Under the pieces are notes generated by a model, which had not been told where the DNA came from, ran no database searches, and saw only the letters and a list, made by a program, of their open reading frames with translations. A stretch of 64,000 nt of DNA from an uncultured Parcubacteria group bacterium (GTDB lineage: Bacteria; Patescibacteriota; Patescibacteriia; UBA9934; CAMTUG01): the NCBI GenBank assembly GCA_947084965.1, contig CAMTUG010000001.1, positions 276,206-340,205 on the forward strand, read 5' to 3'. The position numbers were made by a program, and so were the translations under genes. Positions 1 through 19,662 of this stretch are shown here, in pieces. Every line of letters starts with the position of its first letter. Position 1 is the stretch's first letter.

Positions 1-907
1 AAAGATCAAGAAGCACGCCTTTCACCTGTTGATCTTTTCGATCCTTCTCCTGATCCTAGTTTTTATCCCAGGGATCGGATCGAGCTTTGGAACTTCGCAT
101 AGCTGGATTACGCTTGGCGGACTGTTTTCGATTCAGCCGGCCGAGATCGTCAAGCTGACCTTTTTGTTTTATCTCGCGGCCTGGCTGGAAAAGCGCGGCG
201 GGGTTGTCAAAGATCTGGATGGACTGATGCCGTTTCTGATCGCCCTTGGATCGGTGCTTTTTCTGATCGCCCTTCAGCCAGATACCGGCACCATGGCGGT
301 GATCGCGGGGATGTCGTTCATCGTCTACTTTGTCGCCGGCGCTCCGATTCTTCATTTGGCTGGACTTGGAGGGATTGGGGCGGTCTTTTTGCTCATCCTC
401 ATTAAATCATCGACCTATCGCGCCGAACGATTCATGGCTTTTTTACACCCCGAGCTTGATCCCCAGGGGATCGGGTATCATATTAACCAGGCACTTCTGG
501 CGATTGGCTCTGGTGGGTTATTCGGTTTGGGCTACGGCTTGTCGCGTCAAAAGTTCGAGTACCTGCCGGAAGTCGTCGGAGACTCGATCTTTGCAGTGAT
601 CGCTGAAGAGATGGGATTCGTGATCGCCGCCGGTTTGGTCGTTCTCTTCGTCGCCTTTTTGTGGCGCGGCATGAAAATCGCCAAAGCAGCGCCCGACGCT
701 TTTGGGAAATATTTGGTCGTCGGGGTTGTTTCGTGGATTACGATTCAGGCCTTTGTGAACATCGGTTCGATGACCTCGATCATGCCGATGACCGGAGTGA
801 CGCTGCCATTCGTCAGCTACGGCGGAACGTCGCTCGTAGTGTGTATGTCGGCGGTCGGGGTGGTGCTTAGTGTGTCACGTGGAAACTATGGGAATGCAAA
901 ATCCTAA
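1..907 (+). CDS. ftsW: FtsW/RodA (SEDS) family cell-division/elongation protein, 5'-truncated by the window edge
   Basis: Reading frame is open from position 2. C-terminal SEDS-like motifs are present (GYHINQALLAIGSGGLFGLGYGLS, PEVVGDSIFAVIAEE). It sits immediately upstream of murG, as in dcw clusters. Confidence 0.75.
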   Translation, partial: KIKKHAFHLLIFSILLLILVFIPGIGSSFGTSHSWITLGGLFSIQPAEIVKLTFLFYLAAWLEKRGGVVKDLDGLMPFLIALGSVLFLIALQPDTGTMAVIAGMSFIVYFVAGAPILHLAGLGGIGAVFLLILIKSSTYRAERFMAFLHPELDPQGIGYHINQALLAIGSGGLFGLGYGLSRQKFEYLPEVVGDSIFAVIAEEMGFVIAAGLVVLFVAFLWRGMKIAKAAPDAFGKYLVVGVVSWITIQAFVNIGSMTSIMPMTGVTLPFVSYGGTSLVVCMSAVGVVLSVSRGNYGNAKS

Positions 908-1018
908 ATACGAAACACGAAACACGAAACAATCGGAAAGTTCGAATAGGAAATGTTTGAATATTTTTGATTTACGATTTGATTTTGTTTCGTATTTCGT
1001 ATTTCGTATTTCGTATTT
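908..1018. repeat. Intergenic inverted array of heptamer repeats (ACGAAAC x3 ... TCGTATT x4) forming a long imperfect hairpin between ftsW stop and murG start
   Basis: Seen directly: aaatacgaaacacgaaacacgaaacaatcggaaag ... gttttgtttcgtatttcgtatttcgtatttcgtattt. It is related to the element at 6425-6545. Confidence 0.7.
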
Positions 1019-2098
1019 ATGAAAGTCATGCTCACAGGCGGAGGAACGCTCGGTCCGGTGACGCCGCTTTTGGCGATCGCCGAAGTCTGGCGTCGGGAAG
1101 ATATCCGTGCGGAGTTTGTCTGGATCGGCACACCTGGCGGACCGGAACGGAGCGTTGTCGAAGCGGCCGGGATCCCATTTCATCCTTTGTTTGTTCCTAA
1201 GCTTGATCGTTATGCTCCCGGGAAGTGGGTGTTCATTCCCTTTCGGTTGCTTTGGTCGATGAAGATGGCCCTGCACCTGATTCAACGCGAGCGGCCGGAT
1301 GTGGTGGTGACGGCTGGGGGGTATGTCAGCGTTCCGCTCCTGTGGGCCGCCAAGCTGTACGGCATCCCAACCTGGGTGCATCAGCAAGATGTGCGCGCCG
1401 GACTTGCCAATAAACTCATGGCGCCGTTTGCGACCAAGATTTCCGTCGCTTGGACGCGGTCGCTGCACGCGTTTGATGAGAAAAAGACGATCCATATCGG
1501 GAATCCGGTACGGGATTCTGTTTTGCACGGATCGCAGCAACGCGGGGCGGAGCGATTCGGATTTGATCTGTCGCGTCCAACGGTTCTGGTTTTTGGTGGT
1601 GGCACGGGCGCGGCCTGGATCAATCACGCGATCGCTCAGGTCGTTCCTGAATTGTGTATGACCGCGAATGTTCTGCATATCACCGGGCGAGGGAAGTTGA
1701 CGTCGGTCGAGCCTCGACCAAACTATCAGGCCGTAGAGTTACTCACGACCGAGATGCCGGATGCGCTCGCTCTCGCCGATCTGGTCGTCTGTCGTGCTGG
1801 CATGGCCACGATTTCCGAACTTGCCGCATTAGCCAAACCGGCGATGGTGATTCCGATCCCAGATTCGCACCAAGAAGATAACACCGCCGCCCTAGAAGAA
1901 CTCAGTGCTGCGGTGATTGTTCACCAGGCGCAGACAACGCCGCAGATGCTCTTGCAGCACATCCTTGGTTTTCTTGAGAATCCAGAAGAACGACGTAAGC
2001 TCGGTGCGCGACTGCACGCCGCGTTACCAACCACGGACGTTGCCCTCAAACTGGCGCATCATTTGGAAGCTATGGTAAAACAAGGATCCTCCCGCTAA
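1019..2098 (+). CDS. murG: UDP-N-acetylglucosamine--N-acetylmuramyl-(pentapeptide) pyrophosphoryl-undecaprenol GlcNAc transferase MurG
   Basis: N-terminus MKVMLTGGGTLGPVTPLLAIAE, GT28 architecture, 359 aa, adjacent to ftsW. Confidence 0.85.
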   Translation: MKVMLTGGGTLGPVTPLLAIAEVWRREDIRAEFVWIGTPGGPERSVVEAAGIPFHPLFVPKLDRYAPGKWVFIPFRLLWSMKMALHLIQRERPDVVVTAGGYVSVPLLWAAKLYGIPTWVHQQDVRAGLANKLMAPFATKISVAWTRSLHAFDEKKTIHIGNPVRDSVLHGSQQRGAERFGFDLSRPTVLVFGGGTGAAWINHAIAQVVPELCMTANVLHITGRGKLTSVEPRPNYQAVELLTTEMPDALALADLVVCRAGMATISELAALAKPAMVIPIPDSHQEDNTAALEELSAAVIVHQAQTTPQMLLQHILGFLENPEERRKLGARLHAALPTTDVALKLAHHLEAMVKQGSSR

Positions 2099-2154
2099 CC
2101 AGAAAAGCTCCCCATAAACATGAGAAGCTTTTCTGGTGCGCTGGGCGGGGATCG
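2092..2154. repeat. Copy 1 of a 63-nt direct repeat: murG 3' end, a bidirectional terminator hairpin and the last 21 nt of tRNA-Lys
   Basis: Identical 63-mer at 2092-2154 and 2266-2328: ccgctaaccagaaaagctccccataaacatgagaagcttttctggtgcgctgggcggggatcg. The hairpin is ccagaaaagct...agcttttctgg. Confidence 0.8.
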
Positions 2155-2307
2155 TCCGTCGTGAGCCTCCCCATAGGGGCTTCCGCCCCTCTGGTCGTCG
2201 CTTCGCTCCTGTCACCCCCGGCATGTAAGGGGAGTGCCTCCCCTTACCATCCCCTCGTCCGATCCCCGCTAACCAGAAAAGCTCCCCATAAACATGAGAA
2301 GCTTTTC

Positions 2308-2383
2308 TGGTGCGCTGGGCGGGGATCGGACCCGCGACCTTGGGCTTAAAAGGCCCCTGCTCTACCACTGAGCTACCAGCGCA
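2308..2383 (-). tRNA. tRNA-Lys (anticodon TTT), CCA encoded
   Basis: The reverse complement folds as a cloverleaf: acceptor GCGCTGG/CCAGCGC, D-arm GCTCAGTGGTAGAGC, anticodon loop CTTTTAA, T-arm GCGGG-TCCGATC-CCCGC, discriminator A plus CCA. Confidence 0.8.
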
Positions 2384-2433: not shown

Positions 2434-3114
2434 ATGGGACTCAAGCATTTAGCAATGATCCTGGACGGCAACCGTCGGTGGGCAAAATCTAAGGGCTTAC
2501 CGACGCTCGAAGGCCATCGCCGCGGGTACGATAATGTGAAGACGATCGGGCTCGCTGCCCTCGAACGTGGGGTTGAGCAGTTCACTGTTTTTGCCTTTTC
2601 CACGGAAAACTGGAAGCGCTCCGAAGAGGAGGTTGGTTATTTGATGGATCTGTTGCACCACGCCCTCACGGCCGAAGTTGATTTTTACATGAAGCACAAC
2701 GTGCGCTTACGCGTGGTCGGTCGGCGCGAAGGATTGTCGGAAAAGATGATCACGGCGATTGGTGCGGCAGAGGCAAAGACGGCAGGGAACACGGCAGGAC
2801 AGATCAATTTGTGTATCAATTACGGCGGGCGGCCAGAGATCGTCGATGCGGTCAAGGCGCTCGTGGCCGACGGGGTTAAGCCAGAGGACGTGACCGAGGA
2901 TTTGCTCGCTTCGAAGATGTGGATGGCCGGGATCCCGGACCCTGATCTGATCGTGCGTACTTCGGGTGAACAGCGTCTGTCTGGGTTTCTCACGTGGTCA
3001 GGGGTGTACAGCGAACTATTATTTGTAGATAAACACTGGCCGGATTTTTCCGTTGAAGATTTAGATGCTGCGCTTGCCGAGTTTGATCAGCGTGGACGAA
3101 GGTTTGGCAAGTAA
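2434..3114 (+). CDS. uppS: Isoprenyl transferase (undecaprenyl diphosphate synthase)
   Basis: MGLKHLAMILDGNRRWAKSKGLPTLEGHRRGY; length 226 aa, typical of cis-prenyltransferases. Confidence 0.85.
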   Translation: MGLKHLAMILDGNRRWAKSKGLPTLEGHRRGYDNVKTIGLAALERGVEQFTVFAFSTENWKRSEEEVGYLMDLLHHALTAEVDFYMKHNVRLRVVGRREGLSEKMITAIGAAEAKTAGNTAGQINLCINYGGRPEIVDAVKALVADGVKPEDVTEDLLASKMWMAGIPDPDLIVRTSGEQRLSGFLTWSGVYSELLFVDKHWPDFSVEDLDAALAEFDQRGRRFGK

Positions 3115-3119
3115 GGGGA

Positions 3120-3151
3120 CTTGTCAGTGCCAGTTGCTTTTGATACGTTCC
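3120..3151 (+). promoter_or_regulatory. Putative sigma70 promoter of the GC-rich cassette gene (TTGTCA-17-TACGTT)
   Basis: Hexamers read directly upstream of an AAGGAG SD and the ATG at 3172. Confidence 0.35.
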
Positions 3152-3171
3152 TGCCGTCCCAAAGGAGTCCC

Positions 3172-3741
3172 ATGCCCCCTCGTTCTTCCGCCCCCGCCGG
3201 TCTCTCCTGCTCCTTCTGCACCAAGGCCGCCAACACCCCTGAGGTGAAGAAGGTCATCGCCGGCGTAAACGTCTACATCTGTGACGTCTGCGTCAAGGGG
3301 ATGGTCGCGCTCGTCGTTGTCCAACGTCCGGCTGACGCATCCTACCTCCTGCGTCGGCCCGAGCTCGATCTGCGCACCTTCACCATGACCGTCACGGGGT
3401 CGACGACGCTCGGTGACGTGCTCGGCTGGTACCTGCGTGTCTACCGTACGTTCCCTCACCTCCCCAAGGAGACCGGGACGGTCATCACGAGTGCTGCCTG
3501 CCGATTCTGCAGCCGGGTCGACCAGGTCGTGATCAGCCGCCTCGCGGCCAACATCTGCCTCGACTGCCTGCGGGACGTCGCCAAGATCCTGCTCAAGGAC
3601 GACCCTGCGCCGTCCTACCTGGTGCGTGATGCGGTGCTCGACTTGTGCCCGTTCGCCACCCTCCGCCTCGACGTGGATGAGCCGCACACCATCGGCGATG
3701 TTCTCAACGCCTACACGACCGCATCTCCGCCGCTGAACTGA
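3172..3741 (+). CDS. Small protein with two ClpX-type C4 zinc-finger motifs and no AAA+ domain. Extreme GC3 codon usage unlike the backbone
   Basis: AAGGAG SD 5 nt upstream. Motifs LSCSFCTKAANTPEVKKVIAGVNVYICDVCV and CRFCSRVDQVVISRLAANICLDCL resemble the ClpX N-terminal zinc finger. Third codon positions are almost all G/C, whereas the antisense ORF (3124-3756) lacks that signature. Confidence 0.7.
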   Translation: MPPRSSAPAGLSCSFCTKAANTPEVKKVIAGVNVYICDVCVKGMVALVVVQRPADASYLLRRPELDLRTFTMTVTGSTTLGDVLGWYLRVYRTFPHLPKETGTVITSAACRFCSRVDQVVISRLAANICLDCLRDVAKILLKDDPAPSYLVRDAVLDLCPFATLRLDVDEPHTIGDVLNAYTTASPPLN

Positions 3742-3829
3742 TCTTCGGCAGCTCACCTCGGCCGCCGATCTATACGGAACGCCGCTCGGAATACTCCCGG
3801 GCGGCGTCTGAACTTAATTGAATTTCAAA

Positions 3830-3857
3830 CCGCGCTCGTCCAGGACGGAGAGCGCGG
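3830..3857. terminator. Bidirectional hairpin terminator between convergent genes
   Basis: ccgcgctc-gtccaggacgga-gagcgcgg, followed by atttgatt. Confidence 0.6.
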
Positions 3858-3863
3858 ATTTGA

Positions 3864-5048
3864 TTACGGTCGTTCCTTGGGGCGGAGGAAGTAGAGGACG
3901 ATCGCGAGAATGACGAGCAGTCCGCCGGAAGCGAGCCAGACGTCAGCGATGTTCGCCGGCGTGTCCTCGCGGCCGGACATGTAGAAGGCGAGTGAGAAGA
4001 GGACGATCGCGGCGCCGATCTCTTCCATCAGCGACTGCAACGATCCGAACGTCGAGCGGTATTCGCTCGTAACGTGGTGGTTGGTGTAGCTGTCGAGGAG
4101 CGGTCGGAACGCCCCGCGGCCGACTTCGTGCACCACGCCCATCACGAGGACCAGTCCAAGCCCAGGAACTTGCCCGATGAGCGCCAGGCCAACCCCAGCG
4201 ACGACGAGGGCGATCATCACGGCTTTGGCTTCGGCCCCTGAAGCGATCTTCGCTTTGCGAATGATCATCCCGGCGATGAAGAGCGCCAGATAGAGCGGGC
4301 TCCAGATCAGTCCGAGCTGGCTGGTGGCCACAAACTGCTCGAAGTACTTCGGCCAGTAGTGGTTGAACGCCACGACCAGACCGCTCACCATCCCTACCGC
4401 CACGGCCCAGCGCAGCGCCGAGCTGTTGCGCAGGGCATTGACGCTCCGCTTGAGCGCCTCTTTCTCGCTGACCTTTTCGTGGGCCAGTACTTCGCCGTCG
4501 CCGTTCATGTAGCGGGTGACGACAAAGAGTCCGACGAGAGCAAAGAACGCACTAGCGATCCACGGCCACCGAAGGCCGAAGGTCGATCCGATCCACGAGC
4601 CAAAGATCGCCGCCGGTGCGGCCAGCAATCCTTTGACGATCGCGGCGTTGGCGAACGTCTGCCCCTTTTCGTTTTCGCGATTGTGCAACTTCAAGGCGTC
4701 GACGATCCAGGCCTGCTGAATCCCCGAGAGGAAGGTGAAGGCCAAACCGTTGACCACTTCGGCCGCCAGCGCCCACCAGACGTTCTCTGCCAGGAAGTAG
4801 ATCGCGTTGCCCAGAGCGAAGATCAGGAAGCCGATGCGCAAGGACCAGGCGCGGGAGCGGGCGTCGGCCCACATCCCGGTCGGGACTTCGAAGAGGATGA
4901 TCGCCACCCAGAACCAACCGTTGACCATCGAAACCTGGCTCAAGGTGAGCCCGATCGAGGTGAGGAACGGAACGTAGGTCGCCGTGGTGACCATGAACAT
5001 CAGGCCCAGGGCGGCGGAGAAGAGGATGTAGGCGCGGGAAGGGGACAT
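3864..5048 (-). CDS. MFS-type transporter (12 predicted TM helices), GC-elevated
   Basis: Hydrophobic helices throughout, GGAGG SD upstream, ~60% GC with a high-GC3 5' half. Confidence 0.65.
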   Translation of the reverse strand: MSPSRAYILFSAALGLMFMVTTATYVPFLTSIGLTLSQVSMVNGWFWVAIILFEVPTGMWADARSRAWSLRIGFLIFALGNAIYFLAENVWWALAAEVVNGLAFTFLSGIQQAWIVDALKLHNRENEKGQTFANAAIVKGLLAAPAAIFGSWIGSTFGLRWPWIASAFFALVGLFVVTRYMNGDGEVLAHEKVSEKEALKRSVNALRNSSALRWAVAVGMVSGLVVAFNHYWPKYFEQFVATSQLGLIWSPLYLALFIAGMIIRKAKIASGAEAKAVMIALVVAGVGLALIGQVPGLGLVLVMGVVHEVGRGAFRPLLDSYTNHHVTSEYRSTFGSLQSLMEEIGAAIVLFSLAFYMSGREDTPANIADVWLASGGLLVILAIVLYFLRPKERP

Positions 5049-5311
5049 AGAGCCTCCGGAGAGTCAAAAAAAGAACACGACCCGGGATGATTCCCAGGTC
5101 GTGCGAGGACTCATTATGCAAAAAATCATGCAATCAGTGCTCGACCACCTGAGAAATACAACGCTTTCGGCATATCGCAGCCGACGAACGCGCGTCCGGT
5201 AATGTGGAGAGACTGATAATTCATACTGTTTTTAGTAGACAGGACTTTGTGAGTGATGTCAAGTGACGGAGTCTATATAAAAGCCAGCGGTTACGGTAAA
5301 CTGTCCCCAGT

Positions 5312-19384: not shown

Positions 19385-19529
19385 CCGATCTCTTGATCGA
19401 TTTAAGATTTTGTCGTACGATCCCCACGCATTCCGGGAGCCGACTGCATCGGCCCCGTCGTTCGCTCGGGAATGTCGAAGCGGTGAGTTTCTCCATTGCG
19501 CTCACTCACTCCGGGATCGTCTAATGGCA

Positions 19530-19603
19530 GGACAGCGGCCTTTGAAGCCGTGAATCGTGGTTCGAATCCACGTCCCGGAACCAAGAAAAATGACCAGCGC
19601 GTG
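19530..19603 (+). tRNA. tRNA-Gln (anticodon TTG)
   Basis: TCCGGGA acceptor, anticodon loop CTTTGAA, T-arm CGTGGTTCGAATCCACG, TCCCGGA-A-CCA. Confidence 0.8.
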
Positions 19604-19637
19604 CTGGTCGTTTTTCTTTGTCGACGTGGATTCGAAT
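19604..19637. terminator. Bidirectional terminator hairpin between tRNA-Gln and mscL
   Basis: aaaaat-gaccagc-gcgt-gctggtc-gttttt. Confidence 0.65.
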
Positions 19638-19662
19638 GGGAAGAGGTGCCTCGCCCTGGGCC

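What the first reader, a model, noticed from the sequence alone, without database searches (positions are those of the whole stretch)
2092..2383. Duplication of the tRNA-Lys 3' end plus its bidirectional terminator (63-nt direct repeats flanking a 111-nt GC-rich segment)
The repeats at 2092-2154 and 2266-2328 contain the last murG codons, a terminator hairpin and the 3' 21 nt of tRNA-Lys. Partial duplication of a tRNA 3' end is the classic scar of site-specific integration (attL/attR) into a tRNA gene.

The intervening 111 nt is GC-rich (~65%), with two small GGGGAG...CTCCCC hairpins. This may be the remnant of an integrated element that has since been deleted, or a mini-insertion.
Basis: seen in the sequence. 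Interest (0 to 1): 0.55.

Follow-up and report, generated by a model that had tools for sequence, protein, structure and literature searches.

The report
Tiny mobile element at tRNA T-loops
The repeat is real, but it flanks one intact copy of an apparently undescribed 100-140-base non-coding mobile element that inserts beside tRNA and tmRNA genes in distant bacteria, not the scar of a lost prophage.

Summary
Two identical 64-nt copies (2091-2154, 2265-2328) flank a 110-nt, 66% GC insert next to an intact tRNA-Lys. Three relatives (murG 63-87% identical) have a single copy and no insert, so this is a lineage-specific insertion.

The insert is not decayed island DNA. Its hairpin and a second conserved block retrieved 11 further loci, from another Patescibacteria MAG, MAGs titled Gammaproteobacteria, and metagenomes. 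All share one architecture, read in tRNA direction:
- intact tRNA or tmRNA, then a hairpin;
- an inverted 9-15-nt copy of that gene's T-loop and 3' T-stem;
- a conserved hairpin-rich core of 102-136 nt;
- a direct 17-21-nt copy of that gene from the T-loop to its 3' end.

Window core versus a tRNA-Thr copy: 88% identical. Two copies in one MAG (tRNA-Thr, tRNA-Gly) have cores 97/100 identical but unrelated, locally matching flanks. The core therefore moves and the flanks are rebuilt from each target. In the window and three other elements the downstream hairpin is duplicated too; this accounts for the 64-nt repeat.

There is no ORF, no integrase, transposase or reverse-transcriptase domain in the window, no Rfam family, and no viral, E. 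coli or literature match.

The mechanism is inferred only: trans-mobilised, copy-and-paste, primed at the T-loop.

The parts
2308..2382 (-). Intact tRNA-Lys(UUU) gene, the target. Its last 21 nt (2308-2328) lie inside the proximal repeat copy.
   Evidence: ARAGORN; Rfam tRNA 69.5 bits.
2265..2328 (-). Proximal copy of the 64-nt repeat: tRNA from T-loop C56 to CCA (2328-2308), hairpin starting in the CCA (2310-2273), then TTAGCGGG (2272-2265).
2257..2269 (-). 'antiT': 13-nt inverted copy (GCGGGGATCGGAC) of the tRNA-Lys T-loop plus 3' T-stem. Its first 5 nt overlap the end of the repeat.
   Evidence: Inverted pair I4, 13/13 complementary to 2319-2331. The same feature, matching the local tRNA, occurs in all 12 family loci. 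Control tRNAs have at most 8 nt.
2155..2256 (-). Conserved core of the element (102 nt, GAGGGGATGG...CACGACGGA), the part shared between genomes.
   Evidence: Covariance-model hit at 130.5 bits, E 3.6e-33. 70-88% identity to the other members. No other copy in the window.
2225..2247 (-). Core hairpin P1 (GTAAGGGGAG / 3-nt loop / CTCCCCTTAC).
   Evidence: 6 of its 10 pairs show compensatory changes across 11 members.
2171..2194 (-). Core hairpin P3 (CCAGAGGGGC-GGAA-GCCCCTATGG), the most conserved block, with a GNRA-type loop.
   Evidence: 100% of cells paired; 3 pairs with compensatory changes. This block was the search pattern that retrieved L019-L023.
2091..2154 (-). Distal copy of the 64-nt repeat: displaced tRNA 3' fragment (2154-2134), second copy of the hairpin, then TTAGCGGG, which on the plus strand is the last codon and stop of murG (2091-2098).
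1019..2098 (+). murG, the convergent neighbour. Its stop codon lies inside the distal repeat copy.
   Evidence: Pfam Glyco_transf_28 and Glyco_tran_28_C.
19623..19636 (+). Possible second, decayed trace of the same process: a 14-nt exact inverted copy of the tRNA-Gln T-loop/T-stem, 39 nt downstream of tRNA-Gln (19510-19583) and just after its hairpin. Only about 26 nt follow before the mscL stop codon.
   Evidence: The following sequence resembles the core start only weakly (score within the shuffle range; covariance model 5.3 bits).

Best explanation
The 64-nt repeats bracket one complete copy of a small, protein-less, hairpin-rich mobile element. Its core is 102 nt here and 102-136 nt elsewhere. 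The family inserts at the T-loop/3' end of tRNA and tmRNA genes and leaves the gene intact.

Shown: the core is the movable part. At every site it is flanked on its 5' side by an inverted copy of the local T-loop and 3' T-stem (about positions 53-66). On its 3' side it is flanked by a direct copy of the local gene from the T-loop (about position 57, sometimes 54) to the 3' end. These two flanks pair to close the core in a stem. In recent insertions the direct duplication runs on through the hairpin downstream of the tRNA. This holds for the window (64 nt, 100% identical), L022 tRNA-Val (at least 47 nt, 100%), L023 (53 nt, 90.6%) and L026 (clearly related hairpins).

Inferred: the element is mobilised in trans by an unidentified enzyme through a copy-and-paste route primed at a break in the T-loop. 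My preferred scheme has four steps. (1) The bottom strand is nicked at 56/57 and primes copying of the core from an RNA or single-stranded template. (2) The new strand folds back and copies a few bases of the tRNA 3' segment, which makes the inverted flank. (3) The top strand, nicked downstream of the hairpin, primes second-strand synthesis through a short microhomology (GCGGG in the window). (4) The stretch between the two nicks ends up duplicated, and that stretch is the 64-nt repeat.
For: Presence/absence: three relatives (murG 87%, 64% and 63% identical) have a single-copy site.

Family: 12 loci have the same order and orientation of parts. Covariance-model scores are 64-143 bits, with one hit per locus.

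Targets: Lys, His, Met (x2), Thr, Gly, Ser, Leu (x2), tmRNA (Rfam) and two tRNAs whose type was not determined (L020, L026).

Flanks match the local gene in every case: inverted 9-15 nt exact, direct 17-21 nt exact. Of 12 element-free tRNAs in the same loci, 10 have at most 8 nt. The two exceptions are a probable remnant at the window's tRNA-Gln and a second element type at L022 tRNA-Val.

Flanks are re-templated: L010 (tRNA-Thr) and L011 (tRNA-Gly) come from one MAG. Their cores are 97/100 identical, while the 60 nt upstream are 20/60 identical.

Spread: the window core is 88% identical to L010, whose record is titled Gammaproteobacteria.

Structure: 11 of 25 modelled pairs show compensatory changes, reached by 0 of 500 shuffles. 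G-U pairs occur on the tRNA-sense strand. Fold z-score is -4.0 for the sense strand and -2.7 for the antisense strand.

No coding capacity is conserved.

Hairpin duplication in four elements, and a 5-nt overlap of repeat end and inverted flank in the window, fit staggered nicks plus microhomology.

The same architecture with an unrelated 94-nt core at L022 tRNA-Val shows that the process is general.
Against: No enzyme has been identified. Pfam finds no integrase, transposase or reverse-transcriptase domain in the window's 63 ORFs of at least 120 aa. A weak phmmer screen of the flanks of 12 loci finds none either. Group II introns were reported absent from Patescibacteria (PMC13011429); that paper also screened for reverse transcriptase, but I did not read the result.

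Truncated copies (L011; the distal partial unit of L023) keep the 5' part of the core and lose the 3' part. That is the opposite of what simple target-primed copying from the 3' end predicts.

In most members the two hairpins are unrelated while the 20-nt tRNA fragment stays identical. This needs either selection on the fragment or a different route, such as transfer by homologous recombination using the tRNA as a homology arm.

In an A-B-A arrangement the inserted segment cannot be delimited from one locus alone.

Only 13 elements were seen, and raw reads could not be checked.
Confidence: 0.55

Rival explanations
1. A non-autonomous site-specific integrative mini-element. The mobile unit is (tRNA 3' fragment, hairpin, inverted T-loop copy, core). 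As single-stranded DNA the fragment and its inverted copy fold into a hairpin that mimics the duplex T-arm, as in the folded attP of CTX phage. A T-loop-specific tyrosine recombinase encoded elsewhere integrates it and so restores the tRNA 3' end.
For: The direct repeat starts in the T-loop and runs to the 3' end, as for T-loop-class integrases (own knowledge, Williams 2002; Ms6 in PMC1762012). The order (site, hairpin, inverted site) matches the integrated CTX arrangement (own knowledge). The fold pairs the T-arm with the inverted copy across the hairpin. The tetranucleotides next to the core look element-borne in L022 and L026 (GGAC where the local tRNA would give GAAC). A partial second unit occurs in L023. 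tmRNA is also a target.
Against: The flanks differ completely between 97%-identical cores in one genome, so the tRNA-specific parts are not carried from site to site. In the window the 'carried' hairpin would have to be identical to the host's own over 43 nt, including the murG stop codon. No recombinase lies near any member. No copy occurs in viral contigs or phages.
Confidence: 0.2
2. A functional structured non-coding RNA gene. It would be read through from the tRNA promoter and closed by a stem built from tRNA-derived sequence, with a tRNA-like 3' tail. Selection keeps it, and it spreads between genomes mainly by homologous recombination, using the conserved tRNA gene and the 20-nt fragment as homology arms.
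For: Hairpins are supported by covariation, carry GNRA-type loops, and show G-U pairs only on the tRNA-sense strand. The distal tRNA fragment and the inverted copy stay matched to the tRNA while the neighbouring hairpins diverge beyond recognition. A hairpin follows the unit like a terminator in most members, including the window.
Against: No promoter-like site was found, and a hairpin lies between the tRNA and the element. No Rfam family matches. Homologous recombination cannot move the core to a different tRNA, nor create the inverted flank. The family is patchy among close relatives.
Confidence: 0.15
3. One reading: the attL/attR scar of a large integrase-carrying island or prophage in tRNA-Lys, later reduced to 110 nt by internal deletion.
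For: A partial tRNA 3' duplication is the classic mark of such integrations. The insert is richer in GC than its surroundings.
Against: The same 100-136-nt core, with the same two boundaries, occurs in 12 loci at 10 or more different genes, and never with island genes between its halves. The two repeat copies are 100% identical, which does not fit an old decayed scar. There is no integrase in the window.
Confidence: 0.05
4. An assembly artefact or a purely local replication-slippage duplication with no mobile element involved.
For: The genome is a metagenome-assembled one. A 64-nt exact repeat could confuse short-read assembly. The only other public contig of this strain starts inside the tRNA.
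Against: The same architecture appears in independent assemblies from unrelated samples and pipelines (NCBI MAGs, JGI, ENA, Logan). Slippage cannot supply a 110-nt insert that is 88% identical to DNA in another phylum. The break in the Logan contig is explained by tRNA sequence shared between species.
Confidence: 0.03

Closest known systems
Genomic islands and prophages integrated by tyrosine integrases at the T-loop sublocation of tRNA/tmRNA genes (attL/attR; Williams 2002, recalled from memory; Islander database, PMC4383910)
   Same: The insertion point is in the T-loop. The gene stays intact, and a displaced fragment from the T-loop to the 3' end marks the far side. tmRNA is also used. Partial tandem units occur.
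   Different: This element is 100-140 nt instead of kilobases, with no integrase and no cargo. It has an extra inverted copy of the T-loop. The tRNA-matching flanks are rebuilt from each target and not carried. The duplication can extend 40 nt or more past the tRNA end.
Folded single-stranded attP of CTX phage and other Xer-dependent integrative elements (IMEX); recalled from memory
   Same: Two copies of a target-like site lie in inverted orientation, separated by a short hairpin-forming spacer at one end of the integrated element. No element-encoded recombinase is needed.
   Different: Those elements use dif and XerCD, are phage genomes of several kilobases, and carry a fixed site sequence. 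Here the site is a T-arm and changes with the target.
MITEs, REPINs and other miniature non-autonomous elements
   Same: They are about 100-150 nt, non-coding, hairpin-rich, present in several copies per genome, and mobilised in trans.
   Different: MITEs have their own terminal inverted repeats and 2-10-bp target duplications and lack tRNA specificity. Here the inverted repeats are target sequence and the duplication is 17-64 nt.
Target-primed insertion of non-LTR retroelements and SINEs (eukaryotic)
   Same: Target duplications vary in length and can be long. There is microhomology at one junction and truncated copies occur. The element has no protein of its own.
   Different: No reverse transcriptase or poly(A)-like tail is seen. 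The truncation polarity is opposite. An inverted copy of the target is not a known outcome. No bacterial example is known to me.
Cis-mobilisable elements (CIMEs) derived from ICEs; casposon and CRISPR-spacer integration at tRNA 3' ends or repeats
   Same: CIMEs are att-flanked and lack recombination genes. Cas1-type integration gives long duplications set by two staggered attacks, and some casposons target tRNA 3' ends.
   Different: CIMEs are kilobases long and derive from a recognisable ICE. Casposons have their own inverted repeats and 14-15-bp duplications. None creates an inverted target copy.

Membership tests
tRNA-targeting integrative element (tyrosine-integrase island or prophage) | Integration inside a tRNA/tmRNA gene, with a direct repeat that restores the gene and leaves a displaced 3' fragment | tested here: met
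   Intact tRNA-Lys plus a 21-nt displaced fragment inside the 64-nt repeat. The same holds in 11 of the 12 loci; the truncated copy L011 has no displaced fragment.
tRNA-targeting integrative element (tyrosine-integrase island or prophage) | An integrase gene within the element, next to one att site | tested here: not met
   The 110-nt insert has no conserved ORF.
tRNA-targeting integrative element (tyrosine-integrase island or prophage) | The element carries its own copy of the tRNA 3' segment (attP identity block) from host to host | tested here: not met
   L010 and L011 in one MAG have cores 97/100 identical, but each has flanks that match only its own tRNA.
MITE | Intrinsic terminal inverted repeats, constant within the family | tested here: not met
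   The inverted repeats that close the core are copies of the local T-arm and differ at every site.
MITE | Short target-site duplication (2-10 bp) of fixed length | tested here: not met
   Direct duplications are 17-21 nt, and up to 64 nt in recent copies.
Xer-dependent element with folded attP (CTX type) | Two inverted target-like sites able to fold into a hairpin | tested here: met
   The T-arm 3' half and its inverted copy pair across the hairpin: 13 bp in the window.
Xer-dependent element with folded attP (CTX type) | The site is dif-like and recombined by XerC/D; the element is a single-stranded DNA replicon | not testable with these tools
   The site is a T-arm, not dif (seen in the sequence). 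The replicon form and the enzyme cannot be tested in silico here.
Target-primed (TPRT-like) retroelement | Variable-length target duplication and junction microhomology | tested here: met
   Duplications of 17-64 nt. GCGGG is shared by the repeat end and the inverted flank in the window.
Target-primed (TPRT-like) retroelement | A reverse transcriptase available in the genome, and truncation at the end copied last | tested here: inconclusive
   No RT in the 64-kb window; the rest of the genome was not available. Truncated copies lose the end that would be copied first.
Any Rfam RNA family | A score at or near a family's gathering threshold | tested here: not met
   Only tRNA hits at gathering threshold. 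At E<=10 on 2000-2450 only implausible microRNA and ctRNA matches appear, far below threshold.

The most novel reading that the evidence does not exclude
This is a categorically new class of mobile element. A protein-less, structured nucleic acid of about 100 nt recognises the universal T-loop of tRNA and tmRNA genes. It writes itself in next to the gene through a fold-back, target-templated reaction that builds both an inverted and a direct copy of the target. It crosses phylum boundaries between Patescibacteria and Proteobacteria. At least two unrelated cores use the same route, which implies an undiscovered T-loop-specific nuclease, polymerase or recombinase, or an RNA-catalysed step.
Probability: 0.3. 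Interest if true: 0.9.

Novelty: new variant of a known kind. Interest (0 to 1): 0.72.

Why it matters
If confirmed, this is a mobile element with an unusual footprint: no protein, no terminal repeats of its own, and flanks rebuilt from the target in both orientations. Its target, the T-loop, exists in every tRNA of every cell, and the insertion never breaks the gene.

- Mechanism: it would point to an unknown trans-acting activity on tRNA genes that could now be found by phylogenetic profiling.
- Gene transfer: it would give a marker of DNA exchange between the reduced, symbiotic Patescibacteria and Proteobacteria.
- Engineering: it suggests a natural design for inserting DNA at a universal safe site while keeping the tRNA functional.
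- Annotation: these loci produce partial tRNA fragments and apparent integration scars that island-finding tools would misread.

Tried and rejected
- Other copies of the insert in the window: none at up to 3 mismatches per 55-nt half, by blastn-short or by covariance model.
- Exact junction and hairpin patterns in viral contigs and JGI metagenomes: none.
- Conserved-block scans of viral contigs: only chance hits that lack the other blocks.
- BLAST searches: phages gave nothing real and E. coli genomes gave nothing. Plasmids gave only a 53-nt, 81.5% hairpin-style match to a 2953-bp plasmid, which I judged not homologous.
- Rfam: nothing.
- Insert as a diverged copy of neighbouring DNA (tandem duplication plus decay): no similarity to either flank (sequence).
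- Conserved peptide: reading frames are not conserved between members.
- Searching 5.8 billion predicted proteins with translations of the core, to fish out spurious ORFs: the antisense frame gave one new locus (L026) and a second record of L023. The sense frame gave nothing.
- Exact look-up of the window's murG: not on record. The look-up of uppS found one Logan contig that starts inside the tRNA and says nothing about the repeat.
- Group I intron, IS200/IS605-type, IS91-type (GAAC/GTTC target), IS110 bridge-RNA, integron attC and retroviral primer-binding-site analogies: each considered against the junction sequences and rejected, because none yields both flanks from the 3' side of the T-loop.
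- Literature: six successful full-text searches, including the conserved sequence strings, found no description.
Full report
**1. The observation**

The window carries ftsW (29-907), murG (1019-2098), tRNA-Lys(UUU) on the minus strand (2308-2382) and uppS (2434-3114). The repeat finder reports a perfect 64-nt direct repeat at 2091-2154 and 2265-2328. The 110 nt between the copies are 66% GC against 53% for the window.

Read in the direction of the tRNA, each copy contains three things:
- the last 21 nt of the tRNA, from T-loop C56 to CCA;
- a hairpin that starts in the CCA;
- TTAGCGGG.

In the distal copy these last 8 nt are, on the plus strand, the final codon and stop of murG.

**2. Relatives have a single copy**

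The murG protein places the genome among Patescibacteria, since the named hits are Candidatus Uhrbacteria. Contigs encoding murG proteins 87% (L002), 64% (L003) and 63% (L004-L006) identical all keep the order murG, tRNA-Lys(-), uppS. In all of them only 12-26 nt separate the murG stop from the tRNA end, and there is no duplication and no insert.

The 174 extra bases are a lineage-specific insertion.

**3. The insert belongs to a conserved family**

The insert has no second copy in the window and matches no Rfam family.

A scan of one genome per species with its larger hairpin (GTAAGGGGAG-NNN-CTCCCCTTAC) found five loci. A scan of JGI metagenomes with a second block that those five share (AGGGGCGGAAGCCCCTATKRRGAGG) found five more. 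A protein-database search with a translation of the core found one further locus, plus a second record of an existing one.

Every locus has the same parts in the same order and orientation relative to a tRNA-type gene:
- intact gene;
- hairpin, plus 0-40 nt of spacer;
- inverted copy of the gene's own T-loop and 3' T-stem;
- conserved core;
- direct copy of the gene from the T-loop to its 3' end;
- a further hairpin in most loci.

L011 is a truncated copy that ends within the core.

The target genes are tRNA-Lys (window), His, Met (two loci, one with a group I intron), Thr, Gly, Ser, Leu (two), two tRNAs whose type was not determined (L020, L026), and a tmRNA (Rfam RF00023, 89 bits).

The exact inverted copy is 9-15 nt, the exact direct copy is 17-21 nt, and the core is 102-136 nt.

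A covariance model built from ten members scores every member at 64-143 bits. It finds exactly one copy per locus and nothing else in 161 kb.

As a control I looked at 12 tRNAs in the same loci that lack the element. Ten have no inverted self-copy longer than 8 nt within 200 nt downstream. The two exceptions are described in section 6.

**4. What moves**

The window's core is 88% identical to that of L010 and 80-83% identical to four others. L010 is a tRNA-Thr locus in a MAG whose record title says Gammaproteobacteria. The first 46 nt of the two cores are identical.

L010 and L011 come from the same MAG and sit at tRNA-Thr and tRNA-Gly. Their cores are 97/100 identical, yet the 60 nt upstream are 20/60 identical, and each inverted copy matches only its own tRNA.

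The conserved core is therefore what moves. The tRNA-matching flanks are made anew from each target.

The element is non-coding, because reading frames across it are not conserved. Pfam on all 63 window ORFs of at least 120 aa finds only housekeeping families: cell-wall synthesis, Uvr, DnaB, ClpB and similar. It finds no integrase, transposase or reverse transcriptase. A cruder phmmer screen finds no tyrosine recombinase in the flanks of 12 loci. No copy was found in viral contigs, phage genomes or E. coli. Plasmids gave only a weak 53-nt match that I judged not homologous.

**5. Structure of the core**

Two hairpins are supported by covariation. These are P1 (window 2225-2247) and P3 (2171-2194), which has a GGAA loop and a closing CCA/UGG.
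- Across 11 members, 96.7% of cells are paired.
- 11 of 25 pairs have compensatory changes, reached by 0 of 500 shuffles.
- Sliding the partners by one to three columns drops pairing to 43-62%.

Between P1 and P3 lies a hairpin of variable length and sequence. After P3 lies a small GAA(G)-loop hairpin, and then CGACG.

G-U pairs occur only on the tRNA-sense, G-rich strand. That strand also folds slightly better (z -4.0 against -2.7). The inverted and direct flanks close the whole core in a 10-13-bp stem and leave the acceptor 3' strand and CCA as a tail.

No promoter-like site is present.

**6. How far the duplication extends, and further traces**

The downstream hairpin is duplicated in four elements:
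- the window: 100% over 64 nt;
- L023 and its second record L025: 53 nt at 90.6%;
- L026: clearly related hairpins;
- the element at L022 tRNA-Val, described below.

In the window the repeat ends 5 nt inside the inverted copy (GCGGG). In L023 the distal copy runs on into a degenerate inverted copy and about 25 nt of core, so it is a partial second unit. L011 is a copy truncated within P3 and has no distal tRNA fragment.

In the remaining members the two hairpins are unrelated, although the 20-nt tRNA fragment is still identical to the gene.

L008 and L019 are syntenic relatives (70-78% identity) that both carry an element at the same tRNA-Met. Their cores are no closer to each other (79%) than to other members. 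The proximal hairpin of one resembles the distal hairpin of the other. This fits either an original duplication of the native hairpin followed by fast hairpin turnover, or repeated re-insertion.

Two extra observations came from the control scan.
- In the window, tRNA-Gln (19510-19583) has an exact 14-nt inverted T-arm copy 39 nt downstream, at the same offset as at tRNA-Lys (38 nt). Only about 26 nt follow before the mscL stop. The resemblance of those bases to the core start is not significant. I read this as a probable truncated remnant.
- In L022, tRNA-Val lies back-to-back with the tRNA-Leu that carries a family member. It has the full architecture: hairpin, spacer, 10-nt inverted T-loop copy, a 94-nt insert, then a direct copy of the T-loop-to-CCA segment plus at least 27 nt of the same hairpin, all 100% identical. 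However, the insert has no significant similarity to the family core.

The architecture is therefore produced by a process that more than one core can use.

**7. Mechanism: what is shown and what is inferred**

Shown:
- insertion polymorphism among relatives;
- fixed orientation relative to the gene;
- the target gene stays intact;
- flanks are templated from the target;
- both flanks derive from the 3' side of T-loop position 56/57, in opposite orientations;
- the direct duplication has a variable extent;
- no protein is encoded by the element.

Inferred: mobilisation in trans by copy-and-paste. The scheme that best fits the window's fresh junctions has four steps.
1. The bottom strand is nicked at 56/57 and primes copying of the core.
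2. The nascent strand folds back and copies about 10 nt of the tRNA 3' segment, which gives the inverted flank.
3. The top strand, nicked after the hairpin, anneals through GCGGG and primes the second strand.
4. The 59-64 nt between the nicks are duplicated.

This scheme also reproduces L023, if a second insertion hit a locus that already held a truncated remnant.

It has three weaknesses. No polymerase or RT has been identified. The truncation polarity is wrong (L011). It cannot explain why the tRNA fragment stays identical while the hairpins diverge.

The main rival is a folded single-strand att hairpin recombined by a T-loop recombinase, as in CTX phage. It explains the order of parts but not the re-templating of the flanks.

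A functional-RNA reading explains the conservation but not the retargeting.

**8. Comparison with known systems and novelty**

The element behaves like a tRNA-targeting integrative element in where it lands and in keeping the gene whole. It fails that family's defining features: it has no integrase and it does not carry an att identity block.

It is MITE-like in size and in dependence on a helper, but it lacks intrinsic inverted repeats and a short fixed duplication.

Six full-text literature searches, including the conserved sequence strings, found no description. The searchable library is incomplete, so prior description cannot be excluded.

I file it as a new variant of a known kind, a site-specific tRNA-gene insertion element. 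I give a 0.3 chance that it is a categorically new class.

**9. Caveats**
- Only 13 elements were seen.
- Phylum labels of the MAGs come from record titles.
- The genome outside the 64-kb window, and the raw reads, were not available.
- Collection scans were capped, so copy numbers and host range are unknown.

Noticed in passing
window 19584-19662 (downstream of tRNA-Gln 19510-19583): An exact 14-nt inverted copy of the tRNA-Gln T-loop/T-stem (19623-19636) lies 39 nt after the tRNA, right behind its hairpin. This is the same offset as at tRNA-Lys. Only about 26 nt follow before the stop of the convergent mscL gene. Probably a truncated remnant of another insertion.
   Followed up: partly
L022 1-306 (minus strand), tRNA-Val of contig Ga0210057_1000022: The same architecture (hairpin, inverted T-loop copy, insert, direct T-loop-to-CCA copy plus the same hairpin, at least 47 nt 100% identical) surrounds a 94-nt insert unrelated to the family core. 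This implies a second element type using the same route. The locus is cut at its end.
   Followed up: partly
window 905-1018: The ftsW-murG spacer is 111 nt and is built from inverted runs of heptamers, (ACGAAAC)x3 ... GTTTCGT(ATTTCGT)x3. The 87% relative L002 has only 14 nt there, so this is another lineage-specific small insertion.
   Followed up: no
L002 about 1500-1680: The relative has an insertion of about 150 nt between tRNA-Lys and uppS, with 18-nt terminal inverted repeats (AAGACCCTTTGTGCAATA / TATTGCACAAAGGGTCTT). It is absent from the window and looks like a MITE.
   Followed up: no
window 3121-5100: A block of 61-62% GC holds a 189-aa protein with a ClpX-type C4 zinc finger and a convergent MFS transporter. 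Relatives L004 and L005 have a tRNA-Asp between uppS and the MFS gene, and no ORF is called where the window has the zinc-finger gene. L001 and the window have the zinc-finger gene and no tRNA-Asp.
   Followed up: no
L019 5131-5337: A group I intron (Rfam RF00028, 50 bits) lies inside the tRNA that carries the element, so two different insertions share one tRNA gene.
   Followed up: no
L024 (NZ_CP077993.1 2226-2953) and 24 similar 2.95-kb plasmids: A small plasmid found in Pseudomonas, Serratia, Klebsiella, Salmonella and others holds a run of GC hairpins with GAAG/CAAAG loops. It is weakly similar (53 nt, 81.5%, E 8e-3) to the 3' half of the core. Probably convergent hairpin style.
   Followed up: partly
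L008 6553-6766 and L019 5427-5629: In two syntenic relatives that both carry the element at tRNA-Met, the proximal hairpin of one resembles the distal hairpin of the other (about 80%). The collinear hairpins are unrelated.
   Followed up: partly
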